DNA of 32,000 nt from Patescibacteria group bacterium (lineage in GTDB: Bacteria; Patescibacteriota; UBA1384; XYA2-FULL-43-10), in the NCBI GenBank assembly GCA_041674405.1, contig JBAYVT010000001.1:218827-250826 (forward strand), in the 5' to 3' direction. Of the stretch, positions 58 through 31,509 are shown one piece after another (position 1 is the first letter of the stretch; the number at the start of each line of letters is the position of its first letter). The notes beneath the pieces were generated by a model. That model was not told the origin of the DNA. It saw only the letters and a list, made by a program, of their open reading frames with translations, and did not search any database. A program made the translations under genes and the position numbers.

Positions 58-1224
58 TTAGCCGGCCTTCAGGACCCTAGGCGGGTCATTGGCGAAGTAG
101 TCGGGAGCCTCATTGATCAGGCAGCGAATGCCCGCGTAGTACCATGCTCCATATCGGTATAGCGGTTTCTCACTAATGACGACCTGGTCGTCACCCACAA
201 GATCCGTTATTACTTGCTGAAGCTCTGGCTCCCCTCCACTCATGACCACTCTGCCGTCCGCGGTCTGATAGACGCCCATAGCCAGTGGATGGTGGATTCG
301 TTTGATCCGATGGAACTCGATGCCAGCGCGTATGGCCCGACGACGACACTCACGAAGCGTCGAATCAGGGTTGTACTTTGGCGGTTTTCTCTGTCCCTGG
401 AAGCCAGACCAGATCAAGGGGTCAGCAAGCAGGTGCAAGCCACCTCGACGGTCTTCAATTACGGCGAAGAACCGATCGATGTGGTTGTCGGCGCCATAGC
501 CCATCTTGCTCGCTTGTCCATCCAGGAAGGTAGCTGATACTTCCGGGAGTTCGAGCACTGCCATTCCCAGATCCTTGAGTGGCTGTATCGGCGGCGGTTT
601 GAGCTCATAGCGATCTTCTCCCAACGCCTTCAACGTTTCTGGTCCAGGCATTTCGACCTTGTCGAACACAACTGCCAAAGACTGCCTGAAGAGTATCCGG
701 CCGCCTTCGCCGTAGATACTGTCGACAACGTTGTTCTTTTCCACCCAAGCCGGATCGACGACCCGGCTATGTCGCGGATCGAGCACAGCTTGGAAGCGGT
801 GCCAGCTCAGGTCCATCATCACCGTGCCATTCGGCAGCATGGTCCACAGGTCCCGAGGGAACCCTTGAACCAAGATGTCAATGTCCGGGAAGTTGATGGT
901 CGGGAAAGGGCCACTCTTCATCGCATCGAAATACTGCTGGCCCAGAAGCTCCCTAAAGGCTAGCATCACCATGGGAGTCAAACCTGCCGCAGCCAGCATG
1001 GAATAGATCAGGGCCCATTCTTCCGCAGCTTCCTGAGCCATTCCCCGGAGAATCCCCATGAATTCGGGGTCTTTGGCGGGAAGAGCATAGCTGCGGCCCG
1101 GGACTAAACTGTACCGGGAAAACGTTGGAAGCGGGTACGGCGCAAACCGCTCGTCTTGCCCATACGGTCTCGTCTTGTAGACGTTTGATACGGCAAAATG
1201 CGGCAAGCCATAAACGTGAATCAC
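58..1224 (-). CDS. hypothetical protein, 388 aa, G+C-rich foreign-looking gene
   Basis: Long open frame. AAGGAGGG Shine-Dalgarno (revcomp of 1232-1239) lies 7 nt upstream of GTG at 1224. The ORF-track TTG start at 1302 lacks an SD. No family motif recognised by eye. Confidence 0.6.
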   Translation of the reverse strand: MIHVYGLPHFAVSNVYKTRPYGQDERFAPYPLPTFSRYSLVPGRSYALPAKDPEFMGILRGMAQEAAEEWALIYSMLAAAGLTPMVMLAFRELLGQQYFDAMKSGPFPTINFPDIDILVQGFPRDLWTMLPNGTVMMDLSWHRFQAVLDPRHSRVVDPAWVEKNNVVDSIYGEGGRILFRQSLAVVFDKVEMPGPETLKALGEDRYELKPPPIQPLKDLGMAVLELPEVSATFLDGQASKMGYGADNHIDRFFAVIEDRRGGLHLLADPLIWSGFQGQRKPPKYNPDSTLRECRRRAIRAGIEFHRIKRIHHPLAMGVYQTADGRVVMSGGEPELQQVITDLVGDDQVVISEKPLYRYGAWYYAGIRCLINEAPDYFANDPPRVLKAG

Positions 1225-1380
1225 GCAGATGCCCTCCTTTCGGGCTTCGCTTTGGGATAGTACGGCTACATTTGGATTACCACAATTTTTAGAAAATAGC
1301 AAGGCTGGTTAAGTTCAAAATTATTTACGCTGCGTTTTCCAAAATATTTTATTTATCCACTTCCAAAGCGAAAAAAGTAT

Positions 1381-1409
1381 TTGACAAAAATATTTCATTA
1401 GTGTACAAT
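1381..1409 (+). promoter_or_regulatory. sigma70-like promoter of the RRM gene (TTGACA-17-TACAAT)
   Basis: TTGACA at 1381-1386, 17-nt spacer, TACAAT at 1404-1409. Confidence 0.6.
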
Positions 1410-1514
1410 ATTACCAAGTTTGAGAGTGTAGGTGTGCTAAGAACTTTCGTTCAAATCCCCCGAGACAATCAAGCGGGTCGATTTAATTATCGCTTAGGAA
1501 AGCGAACTGAAAAC

Positions 1515-1814
1515 ATGGATCAAGAAGTTGAAAAGAGCAACAAGCTCTATGTAGGAAATCTTCCCTACAATGTAGATGATCAGCCTTTCCGTGATGAACA
1601 GCTTAAAGCAATCTTCGCCGAAGCCGGCGAGGTTTCTGAAGCTACCGTTATCACAGAGAGAGAAACTGGTCGTTCTAAAGGGTTCGGATTCGTCACTTAT
1701 GCTGACGAAGCCACAGCCACCAAGGCTTTGGAAGAACTCAATGGAAAAGAAATTGGCGGCAGAGAATTAAGAATTTCTTATGCCCGACCAATGCGCGAGA
1801 GAGAAGACAGATAA
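1515..1814 (+). CDS. RNA-binding protein with a single RRM domain (99 aa)
   Basis: RNP2 'LYVGNL' and RNP1 'KGFGFVTY'. ATG at 1515 is the first Met after the promoter. The ORF-track GTG at 1401 lies inside the promoter. Confidence 0.85.
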   Translation: MDQEVEKSNKLYVGNLPYNVDDQPFRDEQLKAIFAEAGEVSEATVITERETGRSKGFGFVTYADEATATKALEELNGKEIGGRELRISYARPMREREDR

Positions 1815-1835
1815 TTTCGTCTACTTGACGCGAAT

Positions 1836-1872
1836 AAAAGCAAAAATCCCCCAAAGGGGGATTTTTGCTTTT
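1836..1872. terminator. bidirectional rho-independent terminator
   Basis: Perfect 17-bp stem aaaagcaaaaatccccc / gggggatttttgctttt with an aaa loop and flanking A/T runs. Confidence 0.85.
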
Positions 1873-1876
1873 ATAA

Positions 1877-1905
1877 TTGATTTTTTACGCCCAGTGCGTT
1901 AGTAT
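1877..1905 (+). promoter_or_regulatory. candidate promoter of the 117-aa G+C-rich gene (TTGATT-17-TAGTAT)
   Basis: Hexamers at 1877-1882 and 1900-1905 with a 17-nt spacer. Confidence 0.35.
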
Positions 1906-1994
1906 TGCGGTGCTCGCAGCAAGGCAACTTTCCAGTCCGGATCTGGCCGCCCCTCACGAAAATTCAACCGCCTATGGCGGAGGAGGAGCTGACC

Positions 1995-2348
1995 ATGACA
2001 AAGAGCTGGAGAATATTGCTAGAAGGTTTCGAGGCACTCGAGGAAAAAGTCCATCATGCGTTGTTCGAAGTCGCAGCAGCGCAAGAGGACGCAGATGCGG
2101 GATGGGACTCGTGGCTAGAGTGGGAAGAACTCGCGAAGCAGGTCCGGCGCGCAGCGCACGCCCGGGACCTCTCGATAGACGAGTTTGACTCGCTTTGCCG
2201 CACGGCCCGTCGGTACCAGAACAAGAGAGTGCATGACCTCTGCGTCGCACTCGAGATCGAGAGTTTCGCAGAGGAAGACGGCACCATGATCTGGGAGCAG
2301 TTTTGTGCTTTAGTTGGCAAACTCGAGCACCTGGCGCCAAGCCCGTAG
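1995..2348 (+). CDS. hypothetical small acidic helical protein (117 aa), G+C-rich cassette
   Basis: GGAGGAGGAG SD lies 6 nt upstream of ATG 1995. The antisense 143-aa ORF is Arg/Pro-rich junk. No recognisable domain. Confidence 0.5.
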   Translation: MTKSWRILLEGFEALEEKVHHALFEVAAAQEDADAGWDSWLEWEELAKQVRRAAHARDLSIDEFDSLCRTARRYQNKRVHDLCVALEIESFAEEDGTMIWEQFCALVGKLEHLAPSP

Positions 2349-2376
2349 GGAGCTCCGAGCCTTCAACGAGCGAGTC

Positions 2377-2401
2377 GGGCGGTCTGATGCATGGACCGCC
2401 C
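2377..2401 (+). terminator. GC-rich hairpin terminator of the 117-aa gene
   Basis: gggcggtc / gaccgccc stem with a 9-nt loop, followed by acaatttatttt. Confidence 0.5.
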
Positions 2402-2417
2402 ACAATTTATTTTAGAC

Positions 2418-3185
2418 CTATTTCTTTAAGTTCTCACTCGACATAAACTTTTTGATGTCATTGATCGTAGACATGAATTGGGCAGGAAAAATGATCGTGG
2501 AATTTTTCTCTGTCGAAATTTCAGATAGGACTTGAAGGTTTCGAAGCTGCAGTGCAATTGGGTGTTTATTGATAATATCAGCAGCTTTACCAAGTTTGTC
2601 CGCCGATTGAAATTCGCCTTCGGCAGCGATAATTTTTGCTCTTTTCTCCCTTTCAGCTTCTGCCTGTTTTGCCATCGCTCTCTGCATCGTATCAGGAAGT
2701 TGAATATCTTTGATCTCAACAGTTGTTACAATCACGCCCCAAGCTTCTGTATGGCTATCGATAATTTTTTTGATTTTTTGGTTAATTTTGTCCGTGTCAG
2801 AAAGAACCTCATCAAGTGAAAATTGGCCCACGATATTTCTCACGGTCGTTTGGGCAATCTGGTTTACCGCCGCATAAACATTTTGGACGGCAACGATCGA
2901 TTTGGTTGCATCTACCACATGGTAATAAGCCACGGCTGCCACATCAATCGAAACATTATCGCGCGTGATAATTTTCTGGGATTGAACCGGCATTGTAATT
3001 ATCTGTAGAGAAATTTTGTAAAGTCGATCAATAATCGGAATAATCATCCGAATTCCTGGCTCTTTTTCTCCTATCACCCGCCCAAGCCTAAACCAGACTC
3101 CCCGTTCATATTGCTGAACTACCCGCAATGCCGCAGCGATTAATATCACCGCAATCCCGATCACATACCACCATACTATGCTCAT
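2418..3185 (-). CDS. SPFH/band-7 (stomatin/prohibitin-like) membrane protein
   Basis: N-terminal TM helix, then typical SPFH sequence '[11 protein letters not shown]...[16 protein letters not shown]...[15 protein letters not shown]'. Confidence 0.9.
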
Positions 3186-3303
3186 TTTTTCCTTTCGTTA
3201 TTGATTAAAATGTAGTGCTAGTTTAGAAAAATTGCAATAGGCAGGACAACTAGAACAATCGCTTCGGCTTGGGTATAATACGGAAAGACAAAAGAAAGGA
3301 ATT

Positions 3304-4236
3304 ATGGCGAAAGTAATCGAAGTAAAAAATTTGTCCAAAAAGTACGGACCGCTTGTTGCGGTTGATGGAATCAATTTTAGTGTTGAAAAGGGTGAAATTT
3401 TTGGTCTTTTGGGTGAAAATGGAGCCGGTAAGACGACAACACTTGAGATGATTGAGGGGTTAAGGAAACCATCTAGCGGAGAAATCAAAGTGCTTGGCCA
3501 TGATTCGCAGAGTGAAATTGCCGAGATTAAGAATAGGATTGGAGTCCAGCTCCAGTCATCAGCATATTTCAGCTTTTTAAATCTAAGAGAAATTCTTGAT
3601 CTTTTTGGTGGGTTTTATCCGAAGAGAATCGCCACGGATGAGCTTCTTTCCATGGTCCGGCTCAGGGAAAAATCAAAAGACTTCGTCGGCAACCTCTCTG
3701 GCGGACAGAAGCAAAGATTCTCGATTATTGCTAGCCTCATAAATGATCCCGATGTGGTTTTTCTTGATGAGCCAACCACCGGCCTCGACCCTCTGGCGCG
3801 CCGAAACCTCTGGGATATTATTCTGAAAATCAAGTCGCAAGGAAAAACAATAATTCTGACCACTCATTACATGGAGGAAGCAGAAAAACTTTGCGACCGA
3901 ATTGCAATCATGGAGAGAGGAAAAATTCTCGCTATTGGCACGGTCCACGAACTCATCTTGAAGGTAAATAATCCATTCAGAATTCAATTTGTCGCCGCTG
4001 GTATTCCAGCAAACATTGAAAAAAACATTCGCGGATGCTGTGGAGAATTCGTGAAATTCGATGGCAAAACTGACCATTACGAGTTGCAGCTTAAAAATCG
4101 CAAGGATTTAAAAACTGCTCTATCAGAGATTGAAAAAATAAATTACGAAGATTTACTGGTAACGCGAGCATCACTTGAAGAATTATTTATCGAGCTTACA
4201 GGAAAAGCGATTGAGGACGAGGAGGCAAATGCTTAG
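3304..4236 (+). CDS. ABC transporter ATP-binding protein (ABC-2/DrrA-like)
   Basis: Walker A 'GENGAGKTT', signature 'LSGGQKQR', Walker B 'VVFLDEPT'. Confidence 0.9.
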   Translation: MAKVIEVKNLSKKYGPLVAVDGINFSVEKGEIFGLLGENGAGKTTTLEMIEGLRKPSSGEIKVLGHDSQSEIAEIKNRIGVQLQSSAYFSFLNLREILDLFGGFYPKRIATDELLSMVRLREKSKDFVGNLSGGQKQRFSIIASLINDPDVVFLDEPTTGLDPLARRNLWDIILKIKSQGKTIILTTHYMEEAEKLCDRIAIMERGKILAIGTVHELILKVNNPFRIQFVAAGIPANIEKNIRGCCGEFVKFDGKTDHYELQLKNRKDLKTALSEIEKINYEDLLVTRASLEELFIELTGKAIEDEEANA

Positions 4237-5311: not shown

Positions 5312-5410
5312 TGGACAAATGGGCTATTGCCGAGCCCTACAAAATGATATGATATATATGGTGAATTGTGAAATTTGCCATTTGAAATATTTAGTGAGGA
5401 GGATACCACA

Positions 5411-5614
5411 ATGGATCCAGAAGAGACACAAGAAGAAACAACCCCTGTTGAGGGTGGCGAAGCTGAAGGCACTGAGGCTCCAGCAGCACCAGAAGCGAAT
5501 GCAGAAGGTGGAGAAGAATCAGAACTCGGTGCACCAGCCGACGAAGAAGCTCCAAAAGCTCCAGAGACGGGAGCCGAAGGCGAAAGTGAAGAAGAACCAC
5601 CAGCCACAGAGTAA
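5411..5614 (+). CDS. small highly acidic low-complexity protein (67 aa)
   Basis: GAGGAGG SD lies 8 nt upstream of ATG 5411. E/P/A-rich sequence, followed by a strong terminator. Coding status uncertain. Confidence 0.4.
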   Translation: MDPEETQEETTPVEGGEAEGTEAPAAPEANAEGGEESELGAPADEEAPKAPETGAEGESEEEPPATE

Positions 5615-5623
5615 TTCAATTGA

Positions 5624-5665
5624 ACAATAAGAAAAATCAGGCCTTGGCCTGATTTTTCTTATTGT
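5624..5665. terminator. bidirectional terminator shared by convergent genes
   Basis: 20-bp perfect palindrome acaataagaaaaatcaggcc / ggcctgatttttcttattgt. Confidence 0.85.
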
Positions 5666-5674
5666 AAATATAAT

Positions 5675-6976: not shown

Positions 6977-6981
6977 GCGTT

Positions 6982-7293: not shown

Positions 7294-7358
7294 TTAATCT
7301 CCTTTTTAATAGTAATCGATATTATAGCACAGCTTGAAATTAGTGCTAAGATAATTGT

Positions 7359-9132: not shown

Positions 9133-9143
9133 GAATGATTTCT

Positions 9144-9448: not shown

Positions 9449-10117
9449 ATGGAATCAGTAATCATAGCAGACAATTTAATAAAGATTTACCATTCAAGCA
9501 CCAACAATGTCAAAGCTTTAGATAAAGTGTCTCTTGAAATTTCGAGTGGTGAGTTTTTGATGATTACTGGCAGAAATGGCTCTGGAAAATCAACGCTTCT
9601 TCATCAATTAGCTTTATTAGATGAATATGATAGCGGCGAAATAATTATTAACAATCAAAAAACCTCCCACCTTTCGGAAAGAAAACGTATGGATTTGCGG
9701 CTCAGGGGGCTGGGCTATATCTTCCAGGAATACGCCTTGATCGGTGAACTTTCGGCACTGGAAAATGTAATGCTTCCGGCAATGATGCTGGAATCAAGCA
9801 AGGAAGCAAAGGCTAAGGCTTTCGAAATATTGGAAAAAGTTGATTTGAGAGAAAAATGCTTTCGGCTTCCATCAGAGCTTTCTGGCGGCGAACAACAAAG
9901 AGTCGCGATCGCTCGTTCGCTCATAAATAGCCCAAAGATTATTTTTGCCGACGAACCAACAGCAAATCTGGATTCGACCTCTTCAAAAAAAGTATTGGAA
10001 ATTTTTAAATCTTTAAATAAGAAAGATGATATTACTATTGTAATGGTTACTCATGAACCGGAGGAGTTGGCTTATGCCAGCCGTCATATTCAATTAGCAG
10101 ACGGAAGGATAGTATGA
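9449..10117 (+). CDS. ABC transporter ATP-binding protein (MacB/LolD/FtsE-like)
   Basis: Walker A 'GRNGSGKST', signature 'LSGGEQQR', Walker B 'IIFADEPT'. Confidence 0.9.
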   Translation: MESVIIADNLIKIYHSSTNNVKALDKVSLEISSGEFLMITGRNGSGKSTLLHQLALLDEYDSGEIIINNQKTSHLSERKRMDLRLRGLGYIFQEYALIGELSALENVMLPAMMLESSKEAKAKAFEILEKVDLREKCFRLPSELSGGEQQRVAIARSLINSPKIIFADEPTANLDSTSSKKVLEIFKSLNKKDDITIVMVTHEPEELAYASRHIQLADGRIV

Positions 10118-11343: not shown

Positions 11344-11369
11344 AAAAACACCAATTTGTTGGTGTTTTT
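11344..11369. terminator. bidirectional terminator
   Basis: aaaaacaccaa / ttggtgttttt 11-bp stem with a tttg loop. Confidence 0.8.
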
Positions 11370-11373
11370 ATTA

Positions 11374-11392
11374 TGGTTCGGGGATAGGGATT
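11374..11392. repeat. 19-bp direct repeat of the tRNA-Gln 3' end (tggttcggggatagggatt), copy 1
   Basis: Identical to 11546-11564. Similarity continues about 5 nt further with a 1-nt indel. Confidence 0.9.
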
Positions 11393-11536: not shown

Positions 11537-11545
11537 ATTTTTCTT

Positions 11546-11619
11546 TGGTTCGGGGATAGGGATTCGGACCCCAATTCTTTGGACCAAAACCAAATGTCCT
11601 GCCATTAGACGATCCCCGA
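11546..11619 (-). tRNA. tRNA-Gln (anticodon UUG), CCA encoded
   Basis: Manual cloverleaf. Acceptor TCGGGGA/TCCCCGA, D stem GTCT/GGAC. Anticodon stem TTTGG/CCAAA with loop TTTTGGT. T stem TGGGG/CCCTA. 74 nt. Confidence 0.85.
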
Positions 11620-11789: not shown

Positions 11790-11793
11790 GCTT

Positions 11794-12118
11794 TATGAAG
11801 CATCCAATAAGCCGGGTTTTGTATAACGATAGCAATCTATCTACGCGTGGAGACCGCAGGTCACCTTCCGAGTCGGAATTGATGTCAGGCGGTCCACTCC
11901 ACTTGCACCGAGCTAGGCTTGCCACAGACGCACATTGCTGTACGAACGCGTGAGCTCTTACCTCACGATTTCAACCTTACCGGTCTTGCGACTTAGGCGG
12001 TATATTTTCTGTTGCGCTGTTCTCAGAGCTTTCACCCTGCTTGTTTTCACAAGCGCTCCACTCTGCGGTGCCCGGACTTTCCTCCCTTGCGGGTAGCTAT
12101 CTAGAATGCTTTTAAAGC
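11794..12118 (-). ncRNA. rnpB: RNase P RNA, bacterial type A, short (~325 nt)
   Basis: Conserved 'GAGGAAAGTCCGGGC', 'CAACAGAAAATATACCGCC', 'GGTAAGGTTGAAA..GGTAAGAGCTCAC' and 'ACAAAACCCGGCTTAT'. P1 AAGCATTC/GGATGCTT. Ends approximate. Confidence 0.9.
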
Positions 12119-12153: not shown

Positions 12154-12180
12154 TGTTTAAGGGTTGGAACTCACAAAAAG

Positions 12181-12202
12181 ATTATCTTATATTAAAATAT
12201 TT
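12181..12202. repeat. 22-bp perfect direct repeat attatcttatattaaaatattt, left copy
   Basis: Identical to 13557-13578. The two copies bracket the G+C-rich HD/MTase cassette. Confidence 0.9.
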
Positions 12203-12244
12203 AAATTATAGGATATTGATACAAAATTTTAGTTTTAACCGAAG

Positions 12245-12268
12245 GCGCCAGGCCGCAAGGCCTGGCGC
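12245..12268 (-). terminator. GC-rich hairpin downstream of the HD/MTase gene
   Basis: gcgccaggcc / ggcctggcgc 10-bp stem with a gcaa tetraloop. Weak U-tract. Confidence 0.5.
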
Positions 12269-12278
12269 TCGGTGATAC

Positions 12279-13385
12279 TTAGTTGGTTCGGCCGAAAATC
12301 AGCCGGAAGGCTTCCGGGTCAACGCACGGATAGCCAGAAAAGTCGAAGTCGTGGTCTTCTGCGATCAGCGAGAAGCCTGGGAGCATCGCTTCGATCTGTC
12401 GACTTGCGACCTCGATGCTGTCTGCACCATAGGTCGGCGTGTAGCTCTCGATGACCTCGAGTCGCCCATCGCTTAAAGACAATACTCGGAGGAGTTCCTG
12501 TGGGCTGAGCGCATCGGGGCAGCGTAGTGCTACGTTCGCCATCACGATATCGCCAGCATCATCCGGAATCGGCAGTGCGTCCGCCGTCCCGGGCAAGATA
12601 ATCTCTGGGGCGGAGTTGCGCAGCTTGGCCGTCTCGACAGAAAGCACAGCCGCGACTTTGCGATCTGCCTGTGAGGGTTCGACGCCGATGATCAGCTCAA
12701 GCGGAGTATGTTTCCGAAAGAGGCTGATTGGCAGTCTGCCGGGCCCAATCTCTATAAGGACCTTTGGCTCCTCGCCGCGCTCCGCACAAAGCACACCGTA
12801 GTTGCGAATGATGTTTCTCGCTACATTGGTGTGCCATTCGCTGGCATGGTTCGTGCCCCAGTACTGGGGAGTGAGCCTGATCTCCGGCCAGAGATAGGCC
12901 ACCATTCCATGGAGATTCGGCCAGAAGAAGTCCCAGCCACCCTCAAAGCCGAACTCGGCCGCGAGTTTGTCGAAGTCCTCGCGAAAATCCGAGTACGCGC
13001 CAGCCATCCGTGATAGGTCGGCAGCACGCAAGATTTTCGCCTCGACGGTGACCGGCATGACGCCAGCATTGGTAGGTTTGATCGCATCGATCACTGCGGC
13101 GATCATGTGCTCCAGGTAGCCAAGTTTCCGCATCTCCTCGGCAGCCACCTTGGCACTCAGCTCCTCAGGAGTCGAGCACCCGAATTCTCGCGGATCCTTG
13201 CCAAACAACGCATCATGGAAAAGCGCTGCCCAGACAAGGACCTCAATCGAGACGTGGATGCCGCAATGTCGGCATCGTTCTGCAAGCATGAAGGCAGTTG
13301 CGCAGACCCCCTGAGCATGCCTCCAATTATGGTACGGCCGCATGGTGTAATACGGCCAAGCCAATTTCTCGATGAATCCCAGCAT
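12279..13385 (-). CDS. HD-domain phosphohydrolase fused to a class I methyltransferase-like domain (368 aa), G+C-rich cassette
   Basis: AAGGGGGA SD lies 5 nt before ATG 13385. HD signature 'YHNWRHAQGV ... ALFHDA'. C-terminal 'VLIEIGPGRLP', 'LIIGVEPS', 'DIVMANVAL'. Confidence 0.65.
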   Translation of the reverse strand: MLGFIEKLAWPYYTMRPYHNWRHAQGVCATAFMLAERCRHCGIHVSIEVLVWAALFHDALFGKDPREFGCSTPEELSAKVAAEEMRKLGYLEHMIAAVIDAIKPTNAGVMPVTVEAKILRAADLSRMAGAYSDFREDFDKLAAEFGFEGGWDFFWPNLHGMVAYLWPEIRLTPQYWGTNHASEWHTNVARNIIRNYGVLCAERGEEPKVLIEIGPGRLPISLFRKHTPLELIIGVEPSQADRKVAAVLSVETAKLRNSAPEIILPGTADALPIPDDAGDIVMANVALRCPDALSPQELLRVLSLSDGRLEVIESYTPTYGADSIEVASRQIEAMLPGFSLIAEDHDFDFSGYPCVDPEAFRLIFGRTN

Positions 13386-13500
13386 CTTGGTCCCCCTTGT
13401 GTACAAGCCTGAATTTCGAGCAGTGCTAGATTAACACAAAAAACATGTTCCGTAAATTATCCAAACATTAGTACATCCATCCAAATCTTATTATTCCAAA

Positions 13501-13538
13501 CGTAACAATTTCTCCGCGACCGCGGAGAAATTGTTACG
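13501..13538. terminator. bidirectional terminator (18-bp perfect palindrome)
   Basis: cgtaacaatttctccgcg / cgcggagaaattgttacg with flanking A and T runs. Lies downstream of the Nudix/thrS operon. Confidence 0.8.
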
Positions 13539-13556
13539 TTTTTATTTCTAAAACAA

Positions 13557-13578
13557 ATTATCTTATATTAAAATATTT
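13557..13578. repeat. 22-bp perfect direct repeat attatcttatattaaaatattt, right copy
   Basis: Identical to 12181-12202. Confidence 0.9.
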
Positions 13579-21995: not shown

Positions 21996-22868
21996 TTACT
22001 TTTTGGCTTTTTTCTTGACCGCAATTTTGGCAGCTTGTTTCGGTGCGACTTTCGGTACAGTAATAGTCAAAATTCCGTTGTCCATCTCAGCTTCGGCCTT
22101 TTCTGATTTAACTTCGGATGGCAGTGTGAAGCTTCTAGTAAATGATCCAGTATACATTTCTTTGTGATAAAATCCCTCGTCTTTTTCTTCCTTTTCCTCT
22201 TTTTTCTCACCAGAAATTGTCATTATGTTATCGGCAACTTCAACAGTGACATCTTCCTCGGCAACTCCCGGAAGTTCGGCTTTGACTATGACAGCGTCTT
22301 TGGTTTCTTTTACATTGATTTTCGGCATTCCGCCAGCCTTGGCTGGGGTGACAACGCTTTCCTCAAAAAGACGATCCATTGCATCACGGAGAGTAACCAT
22401 TTCTCCGAAAGGGCGCCACGGCCCAATTTCTCTTGGCATAGAATTCTCCTTTACCCCGAGCCTGTCGAGGGGTTTACCCACCTCATCGAGCCTGTCGAGG
22501 GGTTTACCCACCTCATCGAGCCTGTCGAGGGGTTTACCCACCTCATCGAGCCTGCCGAGGAGTCTCTCGTCCTCAATTTGTCCGAGTTGCCCAGCAGTTG
22601 CGGGGTTATGATTAATAATTTTTATTGGTGAATTATTTTCAAACATTTGATTAATTTCTTTTTCAAAATCAAATATTTCCTCAAATGCAGAATTGAAAAA
22701 ATTGCACATCGATACAACAAGGGGTAGTGATGGCATATATTTCCCCTGCTCAAGAGCGATCACAGACTGCCGGGAAATACCCAGAGCTTCGGCCAGTTCC
22801 TCTTGTGAAAGATCGTGTTGGCGACGAAGTTCGCGCAATCTGTTTTGAATGTTTGGTTCTTCTTTCAT
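21996..22868 (-). CDS. XRE-family HTH regulator fused through a decapeptide repeat linker to an Hsp20/alpha-crystallin domain (290 aa)
   Basis: N-terminus 'LRELRRQHDLSQEELAEALGISRQSVIALEQGK'. Three copies of 'LDEVGKPLDR'. C-terminus 'VKETKDAVIVKAELPGVAEEDVTVEV...ISGEKK...FTRSFTLP...AEMDNGILTITVPK'. Internal AAGGAG+ATG at 22439 could also give a stand-alone 147-aa sHSP. Confidence 0.75.
   Translation of the reverse strand: MKEEPNIQNRLRELRRQHDLSQEELAEALGISRQSVIALEQGKYMPSLPLVVSMCNFFNSAFEEIFDFEKEINQMFENNSPIKIINHNPATAGQLGQIEDERLLGRLDEVGKPLDRLDEVGKPLDRLDEVGKPLDRLGVKENSMPREIGPWRPFGEMVTLRDAMDRLFEESVVTPAKAGGMPKINVKETKDAVIVKAELPGVAEEDVTVEVADNIMTISGEKKEEKEEKDEGFYHKEMYTGSFTRSFTLPSEVKSEKAEAEMDNGILTITVPKVAPKQAAKIAVKKKAKK
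22461..22550. repeat. 3 perfect tandem copies of a 30-bp unit (cctgtcgaggggtttacccacctcatcgag), in frame within the CDS
   Basis: Units at 22461, 22491 and 22521, with partial degenerate copies on both flanks (22454-22460, 22551-22560). Confidence 0.95.
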
Positions 22869-26114: not shown

Positions 26115-26116
26115 CA

Positions 26117-27040: not shown

Positions 27041-27052
27041 GAATTAAATAAT

Positions 27053-27763: not shown

Positions 27764-27842
27764 AAACGCCTTTTGATATTATTCTTTTACGAAGTTGTCG
27801 GTTTTTGTGCTGGTTTTTGTTATTCAAATTTTCCCTAGATGA

Positions 27843-27871
27843 TTGACATCCAATCACCTTTTTTGTATATT
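27843..27871 (+). promoter_or_regulatory. promoter of the HAD cassette (TTGACA-17-TATATT)
   Basis: Hexamers at 27843-27848 and 27866-27871. Confidence 0.55.
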
Positions 27872-27911
27872 GTCGGGGTCCGACAACCCTAACACCACAA
27901 GGAGAAACGCA

Positions 27912-28424
27912 ATGTCTAGACCCGAGCCGGATATGCGGTTTCACTCGATCGGACACGTCCCGGTCGATGTCCTCCGATACGCAGGGATCAAGGTCCTGCT
28001 CTTTGATGTCGACAATACCTGCGCGCTCCGCAAGTTTGGTTGCCTGACCAACGAGGCGATCGACTTGATCATGAAGGCAAAGGCAGCTGGAATGACCGTC
28101 GTCCTCGTGTCGAACGTCGTCTCCAGCAAGCGCCGGATCGAGCGCGTACGAAAGATGGCGTACGACAACGATGTGGCCTTCGTCTGTGCTACATTTCCGC
28201 GACTCAAGCCGCACCCCGCCCCGTACCAGGAAGCCATGAGCCTTGCTGACGCCAAGCCGAATGAGGCTTGCATGATCGGTGACCAGCTCTTCACCGACGT
28301 GAAAGGCGCAAAGCGTCTCGGCATGATGGCAATTCTGGTAGATCCACTCGGCAGTGACCACCTTGTCACCACACCGAGGCGCCTGCTCCAGAACTTGGCC
28401 CTCCGCAAGGTGGCCTACACCTGA
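27912..28424 (+). CDS. YqeG-like HAD-IIIA phosphatase (170 aa), G+C-rich cassette
   Basis: AAGGAG SD lies 7 nt before ATG 27912. Motif I 'LLFDVDNT', motif II 'VLVSN', motif IV 'MIGDQLFTDV'. Confidence 0.8.
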   Translation: MSRPEPDMRFHSIGHVPVDVLRYAGIKVLLFDVDNTCALRKFGCLTNEAIDLIMKAKAAGMTVVLVSNVVSSKRRIERVRKMAYDNDVAFVCATFPRLKPHPAPYQEAMSLADAKPNEACMIGDQLFTDVKGAKRLGMMAILVDPLGSDHLVTTPRRLLQNLALRKVAYT

Positions 28425-28450
28425 AGCAGCAACCCATCGCAGTTCCGTGA

Positions 28451-28474
28451 CCTCTCCCCCGTGGGAGAGGTTTT
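28451..28474 (+). terminator. GC-rich rho-independent terminator of the HAD gene
   Basis: cctctccc / gggagagg stem with a ccgt loop, then tttt. Confidence 0.75.
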
Positions 28475-28523
28475 CGGTTTAGATAATGAAATTAGCTAAT
28501 TCGGCGAAATTAAACCACCATTT

Positions 28524-28542
28524 ATGTTCGGCAAATGTTCGG
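28524..28542 (+). promoter_or_regulatory. direct repeat ATGTTCGG-N3-ATGTTCGG (= GTTC-N7-GTTC) upstream of the LexA-MTase gene; candidate operator
   Basis: GTTC at 28526-28529 and 28537-28540, 11-bp phasing. Lies just upstream of the candidate promoter GTTACA (28552) -17- TACAAT (28575). Confidence 0.35.
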
Positions 28543-28617
28543 TTATCCACAGTTACATTTTTGACATTCCATAATACAATAGATCTAGAAATAAAATAGA
28601 AAACACAGGGAGGTGTT

Positions 28618-30153
28618 GTGTTGACGAAAAGGCAGCAAGAAATTCTGGACTATATAAAAAAATATCAGGCTAAACATAAATTTTCTCCCTCTCTTGATGA
28701 AATTCGACAAAAGTTTGGGTTTGCCTCCGTTTCGACGGCACACTTCCACGTGTCAAAGCTTCAGGAAATGGGATATTTGGAAAAAGGAAACCATCAGGCT
28801 CGCTCGATTGACGCAACAAACCAAGAAGAATTGATGCGCATTCAGATAGTTGGCACTATTGCTGCCGGATTTTCTATTGAAGCAATAAAATTATCAGATC
28901 GCGACATTGCAGTCTCGACCAAAGAATTGGACCCTAAACAAAAATATTACGCCCTCAAAGTGAGGGGTGACAACATGACCGACGAAGGAATTTTCGATGG
29001 TGACATTGTTGTTTTAAGAAATCAAAGTACAGCAAAAGAAGGAGAAACAGTCGTTGCAATTATCGATGGCAATAAAGCCATTCTGAAAAAATTTTTTAAG
29101 GAAAAAAATAGAATTAGATTGCAATCAGCAAACCAATCAATGCTGCCGATCTTCCGAAAAGACGCCGAAATAAAAGGTGTGGTTGTTAAGATCATAAGAA
29201 ATCTGGAAAATAATTCCGAAAACACATTAGCAGACAGAAAAAAAGAATATTTACTTAAAATCAAAAGTAAAAACCCAAACAGCCAAAATAAGTACAAAAG
29301 AGTGGCTCTTTCCCCGATTAGATATGCCGGTGGCAAGAGCCTGGCAGTAGGCCATGTCATAGAACTGCTTCCTGATAATATCACCCGGCTTGTTTCTCCG
29401 TTTTTTGGCGGTGGCTCTATAGAAATTGCAGCAAGCAAACACTTGGGACTCGAAGTCATTGGATATGATATTTTCGACATTTTGTGCAATTATTGGAATT
29501 TTCAAATTAAAAATCCTGAGCTTTTATATACGAGTCTCAAAAAACTCAAGCCAGATAAGGCGACATTTGAAAAAATTAGATTTATTCTAAATGATGTTTG
29601 GAAGAAGAAAACTAAGCTAGATCCTCTTACCATGGCTGTTTACTATGTTTACAACTTCAACCTATCTTACGGCCCCGGATTTATGGGATGGGCTTCAGAT
29701 ATTTATCTGGATGAATCTAGATATGAAAGAATGCTCGCACGAATACGAGATTTCGATCCACAAAACCTCAGAGTAGAGTGCGCCGATTTCAGGGACGTTA
29801 TGAAAAAACATGTGAGTGATTTTTTATATTGCGATCCCCCATACTATATCGGGGCAGATTCAAAAATGTTCAAAGGTATATACCCCATGAGAAATATCCC
29901 GGTCCATCACAACGGATTTCCACATGAAGAGCTCCGAGATCTCTTGAAAAAACACAAGGGTGGGTTTGTCTTATCCTACAATAATTGCCCGACTATCCGA
30001 GAGTACTATAAAGATTTTCAACAATTATTTCCCACCTGGCAGTACACGATGGGCCAGGGCGAAACGAGGATTGGAACAAATAGAATCAAACATGGCGACA
30101 ATCACATTAAAGAATCGCACGAACTCTTGATTTATTCGCCGCCAAAAATATAG
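28618..30153 (+). CDS. LexA-like repressor (wHTH + S24 domain, Ser->Asn) fused to a Dam-family D12 N6-adenine DNA methyltransferase (511 aa)
   Basis: GGGAGG SD before GTG 28618. LexA-like 'LTKRQQEILDYI', 'IAAGF', 'VRGDNMTDEGIFDGDIVV', 'AILKKF'. MTase motifs 'IRYAGGKS', 'SPFFGGGSIE', 'YCDPPYY'. Confidence 0.85.
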   Translation: MLTKRQQEILDYIKKYQAKHKFSPSLDEIRQKFGFASVSTAHFHVSKLQEMGYLEKGNHQARSIDATNQEELMRIQIVGTIAAGFSIEAIKLSDRDIAVSTKELDPKQKYYALKVRGDNMTDEGIFDGDIVVLRNQSTAKEGETVVAIIDGNKAILKKFFKEKNRIRLQSANQSMLPIFRKDAEIKGVVVKIIRNLENNSENTLADRKKEYLLKIKSKNPNSQNKYKRVALSPIRYAGGKSLAVGHVIELLPDNITRLVSPFFGGGSIEIAASKHLGLEVIGYDIFDILCNYWNFQIKNPELLYTSLKKLKPDKATFEKIRFILNDVWKKKTKLDPLTMAVYYVYNFNLSYGPGFMGWASDIYLDESRYERMLARIRDFDPQNLRVECADFRDVMKKHVSDFLYCDPPYYIGADSKMFKGIYPMRNIPVHHNGFPHEELRDLLKKHKGGFVLSYNNCPTIREYYKDFQQLFPTWQYTMGQGETRIGTNRIKHGDNHIKESHELLIYSPPKI

Positions 30154-30693
30154 CTACTTTTTCTTAAGCCTATTTTGATGATAAAGGTTGTGCTGCTTGG
30201 CAAGATCTTCCGGATAAGGCTTATTGTTCTCTTGAAAATTCCATTCAGGATAGCATGCCTTTCTTGAGTAATAATCCGACTTGCAAAGGTCTTCCATCTC
30301 TTTAAAACTAGCAATTTCCCTTTGTTCCGAGTCAAAAAGCCCATTCACTGATGCCATAGCTTTTGGTGACGTGATCATAAAAAGCTCAACTTTTGAACCC
30401 AATTTCAATGCCCGCTCAATTAGAAGATGAATGACAAAACGTGGAACACCCGGGCTTCCGGTCATCGCGCCTGTATAGAAACTCATTGTTGCTTTTATTC
30501 CGCCCTTGCCGGCTGATCCGCCAATTTTTTTGATGATACCATCTTGGGTAATGATATATATTCGTGCCCGATCGTCCACAAGAGTGCTATTTTCAATTTC
30601 TTTAGAATATTTGAGCTCGATTTTATTTCGATGATTTGCCTTGAGGACAAAATCACCGATTTTTATTGCTGTCTTCACATCACTGATATGCAT
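30154..30693 (-). CDS. hypothetical protein, candidate GIY-YIG-like nuclease partner of the methyltransferase (179 aa)
   Basis: Its stop codon is directly adjacent to the MTase stop (30153/30154). 'RIYIITQDGIIKKIGGS' resembles a GIY...YIG segment. Family not confidently recognised. Confidence 0.6.
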   Translation of the reverse strand: MHISDVKTAIKIGDFVLKANHRNKIELKYSKEIENSTLVDDRARIYIITQDGIIKKIGGSAGKGGIKATMSFYTGAMTGSPGVPRFVIHLLIERALKLGSKVELFMITSPKAMASVNGLFDSEQREIASFKEMEDLCKSDYYSRKACYPEWNFQENNKPYPEDLAKQHNLYHQNRLKKK

Positions 30694-30781
30694 TTTGAAT
30701 CTCCCATTTGATAAATATCAAGGCTACACTACTCCCGTAGAGGTAAAAAGGCAAATTCGCCGAGAACAAAGTCTAAATTTT

Positions 30782-30810
30782 GTTGACGGAAGGCTACTAA
30801 AACGCTATTA
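30782..30810 (+). promoter_or_regulatory. promoter of the CSD cassette (TTGACG-17-TATTAT)
   Basis: Hexamers at 30782-30787 and 30805-30810. Confidence 0.5.
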
Positions 30811-30850
30811 TCTCGTTGCGTACCATCCTATATACTACGAGGTGAGGCTC

Positions 30851-31450
30851 ATGCCTCGACGGAACCACCAAAAACACGGGGCAGGCAGGAGCCGAACTGG
30901 CTCGGCGTTCTTCAAGAAGCTGGGGGGAGGTGATGTCGTATACGACCTTCCGGCCGATAACTCGCTGGATGATGGCTGGATTGGGGAAGCTCCGGGTCGC
31001 TACTTCGGTTTGCCCGGCTTCGTTCCGGTTACTGCCGAAGAGCCGGAGCCAAAGCCAGAGCCAGATCTGCCTCACGGCGTCGGATTCACAGAGCCGATCG
31101 AGGGCGCCGCTGGCGTGGTGCAGTTCTACCACCACGAAAGAGGATTTGGCTGGATCAAGCTCGACCACGACAGAAGAACCGTTTTCGCGCATGTCAGTGG
31201 GCTTGTGCACAGCAACGGGGAAAAGCCCTTCCTCTGGAAAGGCATGGAGGTCACCTTCGACGTCACCTTCGAGGCACGATTCGATCGGTGGCAAGCCGTG
31301 CATGTTCGCCTCACAAACAGCCAGAGCTTCACGGAGTGGGGTAGTAAGCGCGGCATCTACTTCGAGACCGAGGAGGACTTCCTCGGGCACCGGCAGATAT
31401 ATCTGCGCGATCGCAGATCCCATAGGGAGCGCGTGCGGGTTTGCCCGTAG
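30851..31450 (+). CDS. cold-shock-domain protein with long N- and C-terminal extensions (199 aa), G+C-rich cassette
   Basis: GAGGTGAGG SD before ATG 30851. CSD core 'GVVQFYHHERGFGWIKLDHDRRTVFAHVSGL...GMEVTFDV'. Confidence 0.7.
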   Translation: MPRRNHQKHGAGRSRTGSAFFKKLGGGDVVYDLPADNSLDDGWIGEAPGRYFGLPGFVPVTAEEPEPKPEPDLPHGVGFTEPIEGAAGVVQFYHHERGFGWIKLDHDRRTVFAHVSGLVHSNGEKPFLWKGMEVTFDVTFEARFDRWQAVHVRLTNSQSFTEWGSKRGIYFETEEDFLGHRQIYLRDRRSHRERVRVCP

Positions 31451-31478
31451 TCTCGCAACAAGACACATATAGTCGTAC

Positions 31479-31509
31479 ATGCGCCTCGCCGGCTCCCGGC
31501 GAGGCGCAT
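31479..31509 (+). terminator. GC-rich hairpin terminator of the CSD gene
   Basis: atgcgcctcgccgg / ccggcgaggcgcat 14-bp stem with a ctc loop. Confidence 0.65.

What the first reader, a model, noticed from the sequence alone, without database searches (positions are those of the whole stretch)
58..31509. Five sharply bounded G+C-rich single-gene cassettes inserted in intergenic spacers of an AT-rich genome
Segments ~1-1300, ~1905-2401, ~12240-13400, ~27875-28475 and ~30815-31510 are visibly G+C-rich. For example, line 12361-12420 has 36/60 G+C, against 19/60 in line 9481-9540. They produce long spurious antisense ORFs, a hallmark of high-GC coding DNA. Each contains exactly one convincing gene: a 388-aa unknown, a 117-aa unknown, an HD/MTase fusion, a YqeG-like HAD phosphatase and a CSD protein. 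Each gene has a strong AGGAG-type SD. The four cassettes fully inside the window end in GC-rich hairpin terminators, unlike the A/T-rich terminators of the surrounding genes. Three of them (117-aa, HAD, CSD) also show a sigma70-like promoter at the AT-rich edge. I could not find a clear promoter for the HD/MTase gene. All sit between intact native genes. No integrase, transposase or inverted terminal repeats are visible. The pattern suggests repeated acquisition of self-contained foreign expression units, possibly from a high-GC donor or host (speculative). Assembly chimerism must be excluded.
Basis: partly seen in the sequence, partly recalled or inferred. Interest (0 to 1): 0.65.

Follow-up and report, generated by a model that had tools for sequence, protein, structure and literature searches.

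The report
Long-kept GC-rich genes in AT-rich CPR genome
Five single genes stand out as GC-rich patches in an AT-rich genome of a tiny uncultured (Patescibacteria/CPR) bacterium. They are not fresh imports from a GC-rich donor but part of a genome-wide class of fast-evolving accessory genes that related bacteria also keep GC-rich, for a reason not yet known.

Summary
Five segments of 55-59% GC sit in a 40% GC background. Their borders are about 100 nt wide and coincide with transcription units running from promoter to terminator. Each segment holds one real gene: a pentein-fold enzyme, a 117-aa unknown, an HD-domain protein, a HAD phosphatase and a cold-shock-domain protein.

The pattern is genome-wide. 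About 55-89 of 870 ORFs form a second GC mode.

The "foreign gene from a high-GC donor" reading is not supported. No GC-rich donor was found in 5.8 billion proteins. The few homologues lie in AT-rich CPR contigs and are GC-rich there too. The HAD gene and the HD gene are syntenic in relatives. There, synonymous sites are saturated, yet GC3 stays at 0.58-0.75 against 0.33-0.42 in neighbouring genes. Island 2 sits at the same site in a relative with 80% nucleotide identity.

Turnover is nevertheless real. Three of the five families were not found in 60 relatives. The slot next to RNase P RNA holds different GC-rich cargo in sister genera. Island 3 is bracketed by a unique 22-nt direct repeat.

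The cause of the maintained GC is unresolved. Transcript-level selection is favoured. This scan had already noted the same phenomenon elsewhere in this genome.

The parts
58..1224 (-). Island 1 gene: 388 aa, GTG start, SD AAAGGAGGG. Predicted pentein-fold (guanidino-group-modifying enzyme-like) protein. The GC-rich block spans 1 to about 1300; its terminator lies beyond the window's left edge.
   Evidence: GC 0.56, GC3 0.64. No Pfam hit. The family has 172 representative clusters. AF2 pLDDT is 85.6. Foldseek matches DDAH, ArgZ and agmatine deiminase with probability 1.0. Invariant E, RD, H-x-D, H and C columns.
1401..1874 (+). Native AT-rich RRM RNA-binding protein gene with its terminator (1834-1874), lying between islands 1 and 2.
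   Evidence: ORF. PF00076 on the identical Logan copy. Terminator.
1877..2401 (+). Island 2 transcription unit: promoter TTGATT-17-TAGTAT (1877-1905), leader of about 85 nt, 117-aa gene (1995-2348), GC hairpin terminator (2377-2401).
   Evidence: An orthologue sits at the same site in L049 (80% nt identity, dN 0.17, dS 0.78, GC3 0.67 in both).
11793..12112 (-). RNase P RNA gene (class A). The slot just upstream of it holds a GC-rich island here and in sister genera.
   Evidence: Rfam 149.7 bits. G005 and G006 carry different GC-rich cargo at the same side.
12175..12202 (.). Direct repeat copy 1 (28 nt; perfect 22-nt core at 12181-12202), flanking island 3.
   Evidence: The 22-mer occurs only at these two places in the 929-kb genome.
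12245..13385 (-). Island 3: 368-aa gene (12279-13385) with an N-terminal HD phosphohydrolase domain and a tentative methyltransferase-like C-terminal half, plus a GC hairpin terminator (12245-12268).
   Evidence: PF01966 scores 27 bits against a cut-off of 22. Methyltransf_11 is sub-threshold only. AF2 gives low confidence for the C-terminal half. There are 4 homologues in 5.8e9 proteins.
13498..13541 (.). 44-nt perfect palindromic hairpin (bidirectional terminator-like). It belongs to a dispersed family of about 10 copies and lies between direct repeat copy 2 and the island 3 gene.
13551..13578 (.). Direct repeat copy 2 (perfect core 13557-13578).
27843..28472 (+). Island 4 transcription unit: promoter TTGACA-17-TATATT (27843-27871), 170-aa HAD-IIIA (YqeG/PGP-phosphatase-like) gene (27912-28424), terminator (28449-28472).
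   Evidence: Pfam PF09419, PF13242, PF13419 and PF00702 all score above their cut-offs. PDB HAD hits. Promoter and terminator. Syntenic GC-rich orthologue in G006.
28618..30693 (.). AT-rich LexA-Dam fusion gene (+) and 179-aa gene (-). They are not GC islands, but they lie between the HAD gene and tmRNA and are absent from that spacer in G006.
30783..31507 (+). Island 5 transcription unit: promoter TTGACG-17-TATTAT (30783-30811), 199-aa cold-shock-domain protein gene (30851-31450), GC hairpin (31481-31507).
   Evidence: PF00313 scores 27.6 bits against a cut-off of 27. It is an orphan in 5.8e9 proteins and was not found in 60 relatives. Sequence read.
31609..32000 (+). tmRNA gene with a consensus promoter at 31531-31559. 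Island 5 lies directly upstream. The contig ends at the 3' end of the tmRNA.

Best explanation
Each of the five GC-rich segments is an autonomous transcription unit with an AT-rich sigma-70-type promoter, a strong Shine-Dalgarno site, one gene and a GC-rich intrinsic terminator. Each encodes a real, cytoplasmic-looking accessory protein.

The segments belong to a genome-wide class covering about 6-10% of the genes of this 0.93-Mb Berkelbacteria-type CPR bacterium. In this class all three codon positions, the amino-acid usage and the codon choice are shifted towards G+C.

These genes are not recent imports from a high-GC organism. Their families are restricted to this CPR lineage, evolve about 2-3 times faster than their neighbours, and are gained, lost and swapped between conserved backbone genes. 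Slots next to RNase P RNA and tmRNA are among the places used. Wherever the genes reside, in several AT-rich genomes, they stay GC-rich even after synonymous sites have been fully overwritten. GC-richness is therefore a maintained property of the gene class (shown).

What maintains it is inferred. I favour selection at the nucleotide or transcript level for GC-rich, stably folded mRNAs. The reasons are that the GC-rich stretch matches the transcript and not just the coding frame, and that the class folds better than its own synonymous-codon shuffles. New copies probably arrive from the clade's own GC-rich accessory pool. For island 3 the route may have been a Campbell-type or short-homology integration that left the 22-nt repeat (inferred).
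For: (1) A genome-wide class. ORF GC is bimodal. 55 confident GC-rich genes have GC1/2/3 of 0.61/0.44/0.69 against 0.48/0.35/0.38 for the rest. They are enriched in R, C, W, H and P and depleted in K, N and I. Codon preferences are inverted, for example AAG 0.77 against 0.27.

(2) No GC-rich donor.
- Island 3 has only 4 homologues in 5.8e9 proteins. All sit in AT-rich contigs where the homologue itself is GC-rich: 0.59 v 0.40-0.46, 0.54 v 0.40, 0.56 v 0.39 and 0.46 v 0.37.
- Island 5 is an orphan.
- Island 2 has one homologue.
- No viral relatives were found for islands 1, 3 and 4.

(3) Synteny together with saturation.
- The HAD gene lies in the same tmRNA...MT199...HTH-Hsp20 block in G006. 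pS is 0.78, and GC3 is 0.75 and 0.61, while six neighbouring genes have GC3 of 0.32-0.42 at pS 0.76-0.88.
- HD-gene orthologues lie downstream of ThrRS in G000, L003 and L004. pS is 0.70-0.88, and GC3 is 0.58-0.71 in four of five lineages.
- A two-state decay model (my inference) predicts GC3 of about 0.44 after dS = 2.

(4) HAD identities follow taxonomy: 44-47% within the family and 26-31% within the order or class. 11 of 13 homologues exceed their flanks in GC.

(5) Island 2 sits at the same site in a relative with 80% nt identity, with dN/dS of 0.22.

(6) The GC step coincides with the predicted start of transcription and with the terminator.

(7) Folding against synonymous-codon shuffles. 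For the class, mean z is -1.27 against -0.10, p = 3e-5. Islands 2 and 3 score z = -3.9 and -4.5.

(8) Turnover. Families were found in 0/60, 0/60, 0/60 (apart from a weak HD-only match for island 3 and a borderline one for island 5), 4/60 and 13/60 relatives. Sister genera carry different GC-rich cargo upstream of RNase P. The 22-nt direct repeat is unique in the genome.
Against: - The excess folding is not general. Islands 1, 4 and 5 score z = -1.1, -0.4 and +0.2. The class effect is only about 6% of MFE. One native gene (RRM) scores z = -3.3.
- In more distant CPR lineages the island-1 family is only 2.5-5 GC points above its flanks. The contrast is therefore specific to this clade, not to the gene family in every genome.
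- L006 shows a weaker contrast (GC3 0.44).
- For island 5 nothing is known about age or origin. A recent import from an unsampled donor remains possible for it.
- The perfect 22-nt repeat implies a recent event at island 3, although the gene's linkage to ThrRS is old. The two facts are not yet reconciled.
- There are no expression data and no read-level check.
- Relatives are kin, so counts across them are not independent.
Confidence: 0.6

Rival explanations
1. Recurrent re-supply from an unsampled GC-rich reservoir. The reservoir could be a GC-rich phage or plasmid pool of CPR bacteria, or high-GC members of the same class. Alleles would be replaced often enough that they never ameliorate.
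For: The families are patchily distributed. Cargo at the same slot differs between genera. Island 3 carries a direct-repeat scar. One genome of the same class is 63-66% GC and holds a HAD homologue (G046). Island-1 identities do not follow taxonomy. PMC12455944 reports that most individual gene transfers into Patescibacteria come from other Patescibacteria.
Against: Every placed homologue sits in an AT-rich context. Nothing was found in IMG/VR. HAD identities follow taxonomy, and the gene is syntenic. The best outside hits are at most 35-60% identical, so no recent donor has been sampled.
Confidence: 0.15
2. One reading: each island is a separate, fairly recent horizontal acquisition from a high-GC donor or host and has not yet ameliorated.
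For: The composition is foreign in all three codon positions and in amino-acid usage. The units are self-contained. Three families were not found in 60 relatives. Island 5 is absent from the G006 spacer. Island 3 is flanked by a direct repeat.
Against: No homologue was found in any GC-rich organism. Orthologues in AT-rich relatives are GC-rich too. GC3 persists despite saturated synonymous sites at syntenic loci. About 55 or more such genes in a 0.93-Mb genome would need an implausible rate of imports from one compositional class.
Confidence: 0.1
3. GC-biased gene conversion. These accessory genes are recombination hot spots, for example through natural transformation between strains. Biased mismatch repair drives them GC-rich and also speeds up their divergence.
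For: All codon positions and the UTRs are affected, as expected from a process acting on DNA. Protein evolution is faster: HAD dN is 0.56 against 0.14-0.37 in neighbours. Turnover at the slots is high.
Against: The borders are about 100 nt wide and follow the transcription unit, whereas conversion tracts anchored in flanking homology should blur them. The same gene families are GC-rich at different genomic locations. A GC3 shift of 30 points is far larger than reported bacterial gBGC effects (my knowledge of Lassalle et al. 2015, not checked here).
Confidence: 0.12
4. Assembly or binning artefact: GC-rich fragments of another organism were stitched into AT-rich contigs.
For: The genome is a metagenome-assembled draft of 7 contigs. 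Reads could not be inspected.
Against: An independent Logan assembly is 100% identical over 12,354 nt across islands 1 and 2. Another sample is 98.8% identical across the RRM/island-2 junction. A relative with 80% identity has the same junctions. Homologous islands lie in syntenic AT-rich contexts in other assemblies. About 55 islands each have AT-rich flanks on both sides within long contigs.
Confidence: 0.02

Closest known systems
Horizontally acquired compositional islands or islets, including the individually transferred genes reported in Patescibacteria (PMC12455944)
   Same: The composition is atypical and sharply bounded. The genes are accessory with patchy distribution and lie between core genes. 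Some lie next to structural RNA genes, and one has flanking direct repeats.
   Different: There is no donor of matching composition. Orthologues in other AT-rich genomes are also GC-rich. GC3 does not ameliorate at syntenic loci despite saturated dS. The units are GC-richer than the host, whereas (from my knowledge) accessory and mobile DNA is usually AT-richer.
Phage 'morons' (an extra gene with its own promoter and terminator inserted between genes)
   Same: Each unit is a single gene with its own sigma-70 promoter and intrinsic terminator, set between unrelated genes.
   Different: The context is the housekeeping chromosome, not a prophage. No relatives were found in viral contigs.
Integron gene cassettes / CALIN arrays
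   Same: Single-gene cassettes with a 3' hairpin; cargo can be swapped at a fixed slot.
   Different: The cassettes have their own promoters. The hairpins are short terminator stems followed by a T-run, not attC sites. There is no integrase, and the units are scattered singly rather than arrayed.
GC-rich isochores and gBGC hot spots of eukaryotes
   Same: A subset of genes is kept GC-rich at all codon positions within a genome whose mutation pressure favours AT.
   Different: The scale here is single transcription units of 0.5-1.3 kb in a bacterium. No link to recombination has been shown.

Membership tests
Recent horizontal acquisition from a high-GC donor (classical compositional island) | Base composition and codon usage deviate from the host genome | tested here: met
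   55-59% GC against 39.7%. GC3 is 0.64-0.75 against 0.38.
Recent horizontal acquisition from a high-GC donor (classical compositional island) | The closest homologues lie in a lineage whose composition matches the island | tested here: not met
   Homologues were found only in AT-rich CPR contexts, or not at all.
Recent horizontal acquisition from a high-GC donor (classical compositional island) | Composition drifts towards the host's with time, so old residents are not atypical | tested here: not met
   Syntenic orthologues with saturated synonymous sites keep GC3 of 0.58-0.75.
Recent horizontal acquisition from a high-GC donor (classical compositional island) | Empty site in relatives and integration hallmarks (integrase, direct repeats, tRNA or tmRNA target) | tested here: inconclusive
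   Island 3 has a unique 22-nt direct repeat. Island 5 is absent from the G006 spacer. Islands 2, 3 and 4 are syntenic in relatives. No integrase is present in the window.
Phage moron | Located inside a prophage between phage genes | tested here: not met
   The neighbours are RRM, SPFH, RNase P RNA, ThrRS and tmRNA. No viral relatives were found.
Integron cassette | Promoterless ORF followed by an attC site, in an array next to intI | tested here: not met
   The units have their own promoters, simple terminator hairpins, occur singly, and no intI is present.
HAD superfamily, subfamily IIIA (YqeG / PGP phosphatase) - island 4 | Pfam score above the curated cut-off, plus motifs I-IV (DxDxT; S/T; K; GDxxxTD) | tested here: met
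   PF09419 scores 44.6 bits against 20.4, and PF13242 scores 51.6 against 22. FDVDNT, VLVSNV, KPHP and GDQLFTD can be read in the translation.
Cold-shock domain (PF00313) - island 5 | Pfam score above the gathering cut-off | tested here: met
   27.6 bits against 27, which is marginal; residues 157-223 of the long ORF.
HD phosphohydrolase superfamily - island 3, N-terminal half | PF01966 above the cut-off and the H...HD...D metal ligands conserved | tested here: met
   27 bits against 22. H19, H23, H57-D58 and D123 are invariant in 5 sequences.
Class I SAM-dependent methyltransferase - island 3, C-terminal half | Rossmann-like fold with motif I (GxGxG-type) and a family HMM match | tested here: inconclusive
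   Only sub-threshold hits: Methyltransf_11 at E 0.0076-0.17 in 2 of 5 members and PDB YcgJ at E 0.0078. The AF2 model has pLDDT below 50 in this half. An EIGPG motif is present.
Pentein / guanidino-group-modifying enzyme superfamily (DDAH, ArgZ, agmatine and arginine deiminases) - island 1 | Pentein beta/alpha propeller fold with a C-terminal Cys nucleophile plus His and acidic residues | tested here: inconclusive
   The fold is supported: Foldseek probability 1.0, E 4e-5, TM 0.4-0.5 to 6szq, 6juz and 1vkp, on a model with pLDDT 85.6. C313, H193, D195, H209, E14 and R69-D70 are invariant. The residues were not superposed on a known active site. There is no Pfam or PDB sequence hit.

The most novel reading that the evidence does not exclude
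This CPR clade has a gene-class-specific force that holds a fast-turnover set of accessory genes at about 58% GC inside 40% GC genomes. The force would most likely be selection for GC-rich, stably folded transcripts, or else a targeted GC-biased repair or conversion process. It would act over times long enough to saturate synonymous sites. Compositional islands here would then mark a functional category of transcript and not foreign origin. If so, composition-based HGT detection would be systematically misled in these genomes.
Probability: 0.4. Interest if true: 0.75.

Novelty: new variant of a known kind. Interest (0 to 1): 0.55.

Why it matters
GC-deviant islands in bacterial genomes are routinely read as recent horizontal transfer. 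Tools that estimate HGT in CPR/Patescibacteria rely on that reading. Here the deviant composition persists in orthologues across genera although silent sites have been completely overwritten, so it cannot be a transfer scar. If the finding generalises, a fraction of the "HGT" called in these streamlined genomes is really a maintained gene class.

It also raises a testable question. What keeps a few dozen fast-evolving accessory genes GC-rich against AT-biased mutation in a 0.9-Mb genome? Candidates are mRNA stability, protection from RNases or Rho, and biased repair.

As a by-product, the "388-aa unknown" is assigned to the pentein (guanidino-modifying) fold. This hints at arginine or agmatine-type chemistry in an organism with very little metabolism.

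Tried and rejected
- Empty-site search for island 3 in JGI metagenomes with the repeat plus flank: no match.
- Viral origin: no IMG/VR relatives for islands 1, 3 and 4.
- A common border motif or mobile-element signature across the 55 GC-rich genes: only ordinary promoters, Shine-Dalgarno sites and terminators were seen.
- Flanking direct repeats: present at 3 of 55 genes, one of them a tandem paralogue duplication. They are not a general feature.
- 44-nt palindromic hairpin family: only weakly associated with GC-rich genes (3 of 10 copies within 300 nt, p about 0.04). Treated as a generic terminator/REP-like element.
- Proximity to tRNA, tmRNA or RNase P genes: modest enrichment (16% v 6% within 300 nt, p = 0.008), so it does not explain most islands.
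- First folding test: it used uncurated ORFs with AT-rich 5' extensions, which inflates z. It was redone on trimmed ORFs and curated CDSs. One run timed out.
- tRNA limitation: rejected. The genome has 46 tRNAs, including many with CNN anticodons.
- Relatedness of the G006 RNase-P-adjacent HD protein to island 3: rejected (hhalign probability 0.1).
- Methyltransferase fold of the island 3 C-terminal half: the AF2 model was too poor for a fold search.
- Island 2 leader as a structured RNA: z = 0.1 and no Rfam hit.
- Literature: two searches found HGT surveys but no description of a persistent GC-rich gene class in CPR.

Full report
OBSERVATION

The rest of the window is 39.7% GC. The borders are abrupt: the 100 nt outside each border have 0.22-0.40 GC and the 100 nt inside have 0.55-0.63. 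Long antisense ORFs overlap each island.

One gene per island has the periodicity of a real high-GC coding region, with GC1 > GC2 and GC3 of 0.64-0.75:
- 58-1224(-), 388 aa
- 1995-2348(+), 117 aa
- 12279-13385(-), 368 aa
- 27912-28424(+), 170 aa
- 30851-31450(+), 199 aa

All five genes have AGGAG-type ribosome-binding sites. The four islands that lie fully inside the window end in GC-rich hairpins. Sigma-70-like promoters lie at the AT-rich edge of island 2 (1877-1905), island 4 (27843-27871, 11/12 matches) and island 5 (30783-30811). The GC step therefore coincides with the predicted transcript, from about the transcription start to the terminator.

The window is bacterial and CPR-like. It carries RNase P RNA class A, tmRNA and two tRNAs. 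It lies in a 929-kb, 7-contig genome that is 98.7% complete.

THE PATTERN IS GENOME-WIDE

Across 870 ORFs, GC is bimodal, with a main mode at 0.40 and a second mode at 0.56-0.58. 89 ORFs have GC of 0.51 or more, and 55 of these pass a stricter coding filter. This class has GC1/2/3 of 0.61/0.44/0.69, against 0.48/0.35/0.38 for ordinary genes. It has more Arg, Cys, Trp, His and Pro and half as much Lys and Asn. Its synonymous-codon preferences are inverted, for example AAG 0.77 v 0.27 and ATC 0.69 v 0.29.

Most of these genes have the same layout as the five in the window: an AT-rich promoter, a strong Shine-Dalgarno site and a GC hairpin followed by a T-run. Earlier notes of this scan describe the same phenomenon in other windows of this genome, with mixed verdicts. 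I used them as leads and tested the claims on my own islands.

WHAT THE GENES ARE

- Island 4 is a HAD-IIIA phosphatase. PF09419, PF13242, PF13419 and PF00702 all score above their cut-offs. The motifs DVDNT, SN, KPHP and GDQLFTD can be read in the translation, and there are PDB HAD hits.
- Island 5 carries a marginal cold-shock domain (27.6 bits against a cut-off of 27), with long N- and C-terminal extensions.
- Island 3 has a supported HD domain: PF01966 scores 27 bits against 22, and H19, H23, H57-D58 and D123 are invariant. Its "methyltransferase" half is only tentative. The Methyltransf_11 hits are sub-threshold, the PDB hit to YcgJ has E = 0.0078, and the AF2 model of this half has pLDDT below 50.
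- Island 1 has no Pfam or PDB sequence hit. It belongs to a family of 172 representative clusters. An AF2 model built on 28 family members (pLDDT 85.6) matches the pentein fold of DDAH, ArgZ, agmatine deiminase and arginine deiminase (Foldseek probability 1.0, E 4e-5, TM 0.4-0.5). The family has invariant Cys, His, Asp and Glu columns. I read it as a guanidino-group-modifying enzyme of unknown substrate.
- Island 2 is a 117-aa acidic protein without recognisable relatives. It is under purifying selection (dN/dS 0.22 against its orthologue).

IS IT AN ASSEMBLY ARTEFACT?

Indirect evidence is strong:
- An independent Logan assembly of run SRR6484325 is 100% identical over 12,354 nt spanning island 1, the RRM gene, island 2 and beyond.
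- A contig from another sample is 98.8% identical across the RRM/island-2 junction.
- An ENA contig (L049) at about 80% identity has the same RRM - island 2 - SPFH order.
- Homologous islands lie in AT-rich syntenic contexts in other assemblies.

WHERE DO THE GENES COME FROM?

Among 60 relatives (7 of the same family, the rest of the same order or class), the island families were found in 4 genomes (island 1), 0 (island 2), 0 apart from one weak HD-only match (island 3), 13 (island 4) and 0 apart from one borderline match (island 5). They are therefore accessory genes. No GC-rich donor appears:
- Island 3 has four homologues in 5.8 billion proteins, at 35-60% identity. All four sit on AT-rich contigs and are themselves GC-rich patches: 0.59 v 0.40-0.46, 0.54 v 0.40, 0.56 v 0.39 and 0.46 v 0.37.
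- Island 5 is an orphan.
- Island 2 has one homologue, the syntenic one.
- 11 of 13 island-4 homologues in relatives exceed their flanks in GC, seven of them by 10 points or more.
- Island-1 homologues in the same class are 10-12 points above their flanks in three of four cases. In four distant CPR families the excess is only 2.5-5 points.
- No relatives were found in IMG/VR for islands 1, 3 and 4.

PERSISTENCE

The HAD gene is syntenic between this genome and G006, a different genus of the same family. The shared order is tmRNA - HAD - MT199 - HTH/Hsp20 ... dCTP deaminase - dCMP deaminase ... SHMT ... ThrRS. Across this block, synonymous sites are saturated in every gene (pS 0.76-0.88). The HAD gene nevertheless has GC3 of 0.75 and 0.61 in the two genomes, while its six neighbours have 0.32-0.42. 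HAD identities also follow taxonomy: 44-47% within the family and 26-31% further out.

The HD gene lies downstream of ThrRS in this genome and on the contigs L003 and L004. Their ThrRS C-termini are 83% and 75% identical to ours. Pairwise pS among the five HD-gene orthologues is 0.70-0.88, yet GC3 is 0.58-0.71 in four of them.

A simple two-state decay towards the genomic GC3 of 0.38 would leave about 0.44 after dS = 2 (my inference). The observed values are far higher, at divergences that are at least that large. GC-richness is therefore being maintained and is not a fading transfer scar.

TURNOVER IS REAL TOO

- In G006 the tmRNA-HAD spacer is about 100-160 nt. Here it holds the AT-rich LexA-Dam/179-aa module and island 5.
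- The position directly upstream of RNase P RNA carries a GC-rich island in three genera, with unrelated cargo: the HD gene here, a 248-aa HD-type protein in G006, and a pyrF/pyrE-like pair in G005.
- A GC-rich neighbour of the HD gene in L003 is homologous to a GC-rich gene that lies elsewhere in this genome.
- Island 3 is bracketed by a 28-nt direct repeat whose 22-nt perfect core occurs nowhere else in the 929 kb. Relatives lack such a repeat. This looks like a recent Campbell-type or short-homology integration or rearrangement. It is not reconciled with the old ThrRS linkage.
- Genome-wide, GC-rich genes are modestly enriched within 300 nt of tRNA, tmRNA or RNase P genes (16% v 6%, p = 0.008). 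Flanking repeats are rare (3 of 55).
- GC-rich genes evolve faster: HAD dN is 0.56 against 0.14-0.37 in its neighbours.

WHAT MAINTAINS THE GC?

Protein-level constraint cannot explain a GC3 of 0.7. tRNA supply is not limiting, because the genome has 46 tRNAs including many with CNN anticodons.

I compared coding regions with versions in which synonymous codons were permuted, keeping the same protein, codon usage and GC. The GC-rich class is more strongly folded than expected: mean z is -1.27, 29% of genes score below -2, and the excess is -1.9 kcal/mol per 100 nt. Ordinary genes are not (mean z -0.10, 7% below -2; p = 3e-5, on ORFs trimmed to avoid AT-rich 5' extensions that had inflated).

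In the window, islands 2 and 3 are individually significant (z = -3.9 and -4.5, 0 of 40 shuffles as stable). Islands 1, 4 and 5 are not. Raw stability is about 70-80% higher for all of them (-30 to -34 against -14 to -20 kcal/mol per 100 nt), which follows from GC alone.

Taken with the transcript-shaped borders, this favours selection at the transcript level. The evidence is partial. GC-biased conversion and repeated re-supply from an unsampled GC-rich pool remain open.

COMPARISON WITH KNOWN SYSTEMS

The units resemble HGT islets, and phage morons in layout. They fail the defining tests of a matching donor, amelioration, a prophage context, or attC/integrase features (see Membership tests). 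PMC12455944 documents abundant HGT into Patescibacteria, mostly from other Patescibacteria, and notes that old transfers become invisible through amelioration. I found no paper describing a persistent GC-rich gene class.

VERDICT

The finding is a further, well-documented instance of a clade-wide, unexplained, maintained GC-rich gene class that this scan has already met elsewhere in the same genome.

Noticed in passing
window 13498-13541; also G000 C1:107191, C3:3955, 5332, 9296, 37255, 41528, C5:29290, 105928, 139217: A 44-nt perfect palindrome (AAACGTAACAATTCTTCCGCGGTCGCGGAAGAATTGTTACGTTT and variants) with A-runs and T-runs on both sides forms a dispersed family of about 10 copies. It looks like a REP-like bidirectional terminator module. 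It is only weakly associated with GC-rich genes.
   Followed up: partly
G000 C3:3912-4000 and C3:9253-9341 (outside the window): An 89-nt direct repeat (98.9% identical), ending in the palindromic hairpin, brackets a 5.3-kb segment. The segment holds a GC-rich 372-aa gene, which is itself flanked by two hairpin copies, and a 1170-aa AT-rich gene.
   Followed up: no
L041:7425-9011 (G006) and L042:7702-9252 (G005); window 31609-32000: In both sister genera a large serine recombinase gene of 516-528 aa abuts and overlaps the 3' end of the tmRNA gene, which suggests an element integrated there. In this genome contig C1 ends exactly at the tmRNA 3' end, so the equivalent region is unassembled.
   Followed up: no
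window 1858-1994 (promoter and leader of island 2): The promoter and the 85-nt leader are almost invariant between the window and L049/L050, while the coding region is only about 80% identical. The leader can pair a CCCCUC stretch with the GGAGGAGG Shine-Dalgarno site, but it is not unusually stable (z = 0.1) and has no Rfam match.
   Followed up: partly
window 28618-30693: The AT-rich LexA-Dam fusion gene and the convergent 179-aa gene are absent from the tmRNA-HAD spacer of G006. They look like an inserted two-gene module (possibly restriction-modification or defence), separate from the GC-rich class.
   Followed up: no
L044:9158-10777 (G005): A GC-rich pair resembling OMP decarboxylase (pyrF) and orotate phosphoribosyltransferase (pyrE) sits directly upstream of RNase P RNA in a sister genus. 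The GC-rich class therefore also includes metabolic genes. The functions were assigned by eye only.
   Followed up: no
window 11366-11392 and 11538-11564: The 3' end of tRNA-Gln is duplicated 172 nt away (27 nt, 89% identical), as earlier notes also say (D14).
   Followed up: no
window 22427-22575: Four tandem 30-nt repeats (up to 100% identical) encode the DRLDEVGKPL linker repeats of the HTH-Hsp20 fusion protein (D1).
   Followed up: no
window 1401-1814: The native AT-rich RRM gene is also folded far more strongly than its synonymous shuffles (z = -3.3, 0 of 40). Excess coding-region structure is therefore not exclusive to GC-rich genes.
   Followed up: no
L023 (G046, same class): One genome of the same class is itself 63-70% GC around its HAD homologue. 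High-GC lineages therefore exist within the class and could serve as a reservoir.
   Followed up: no
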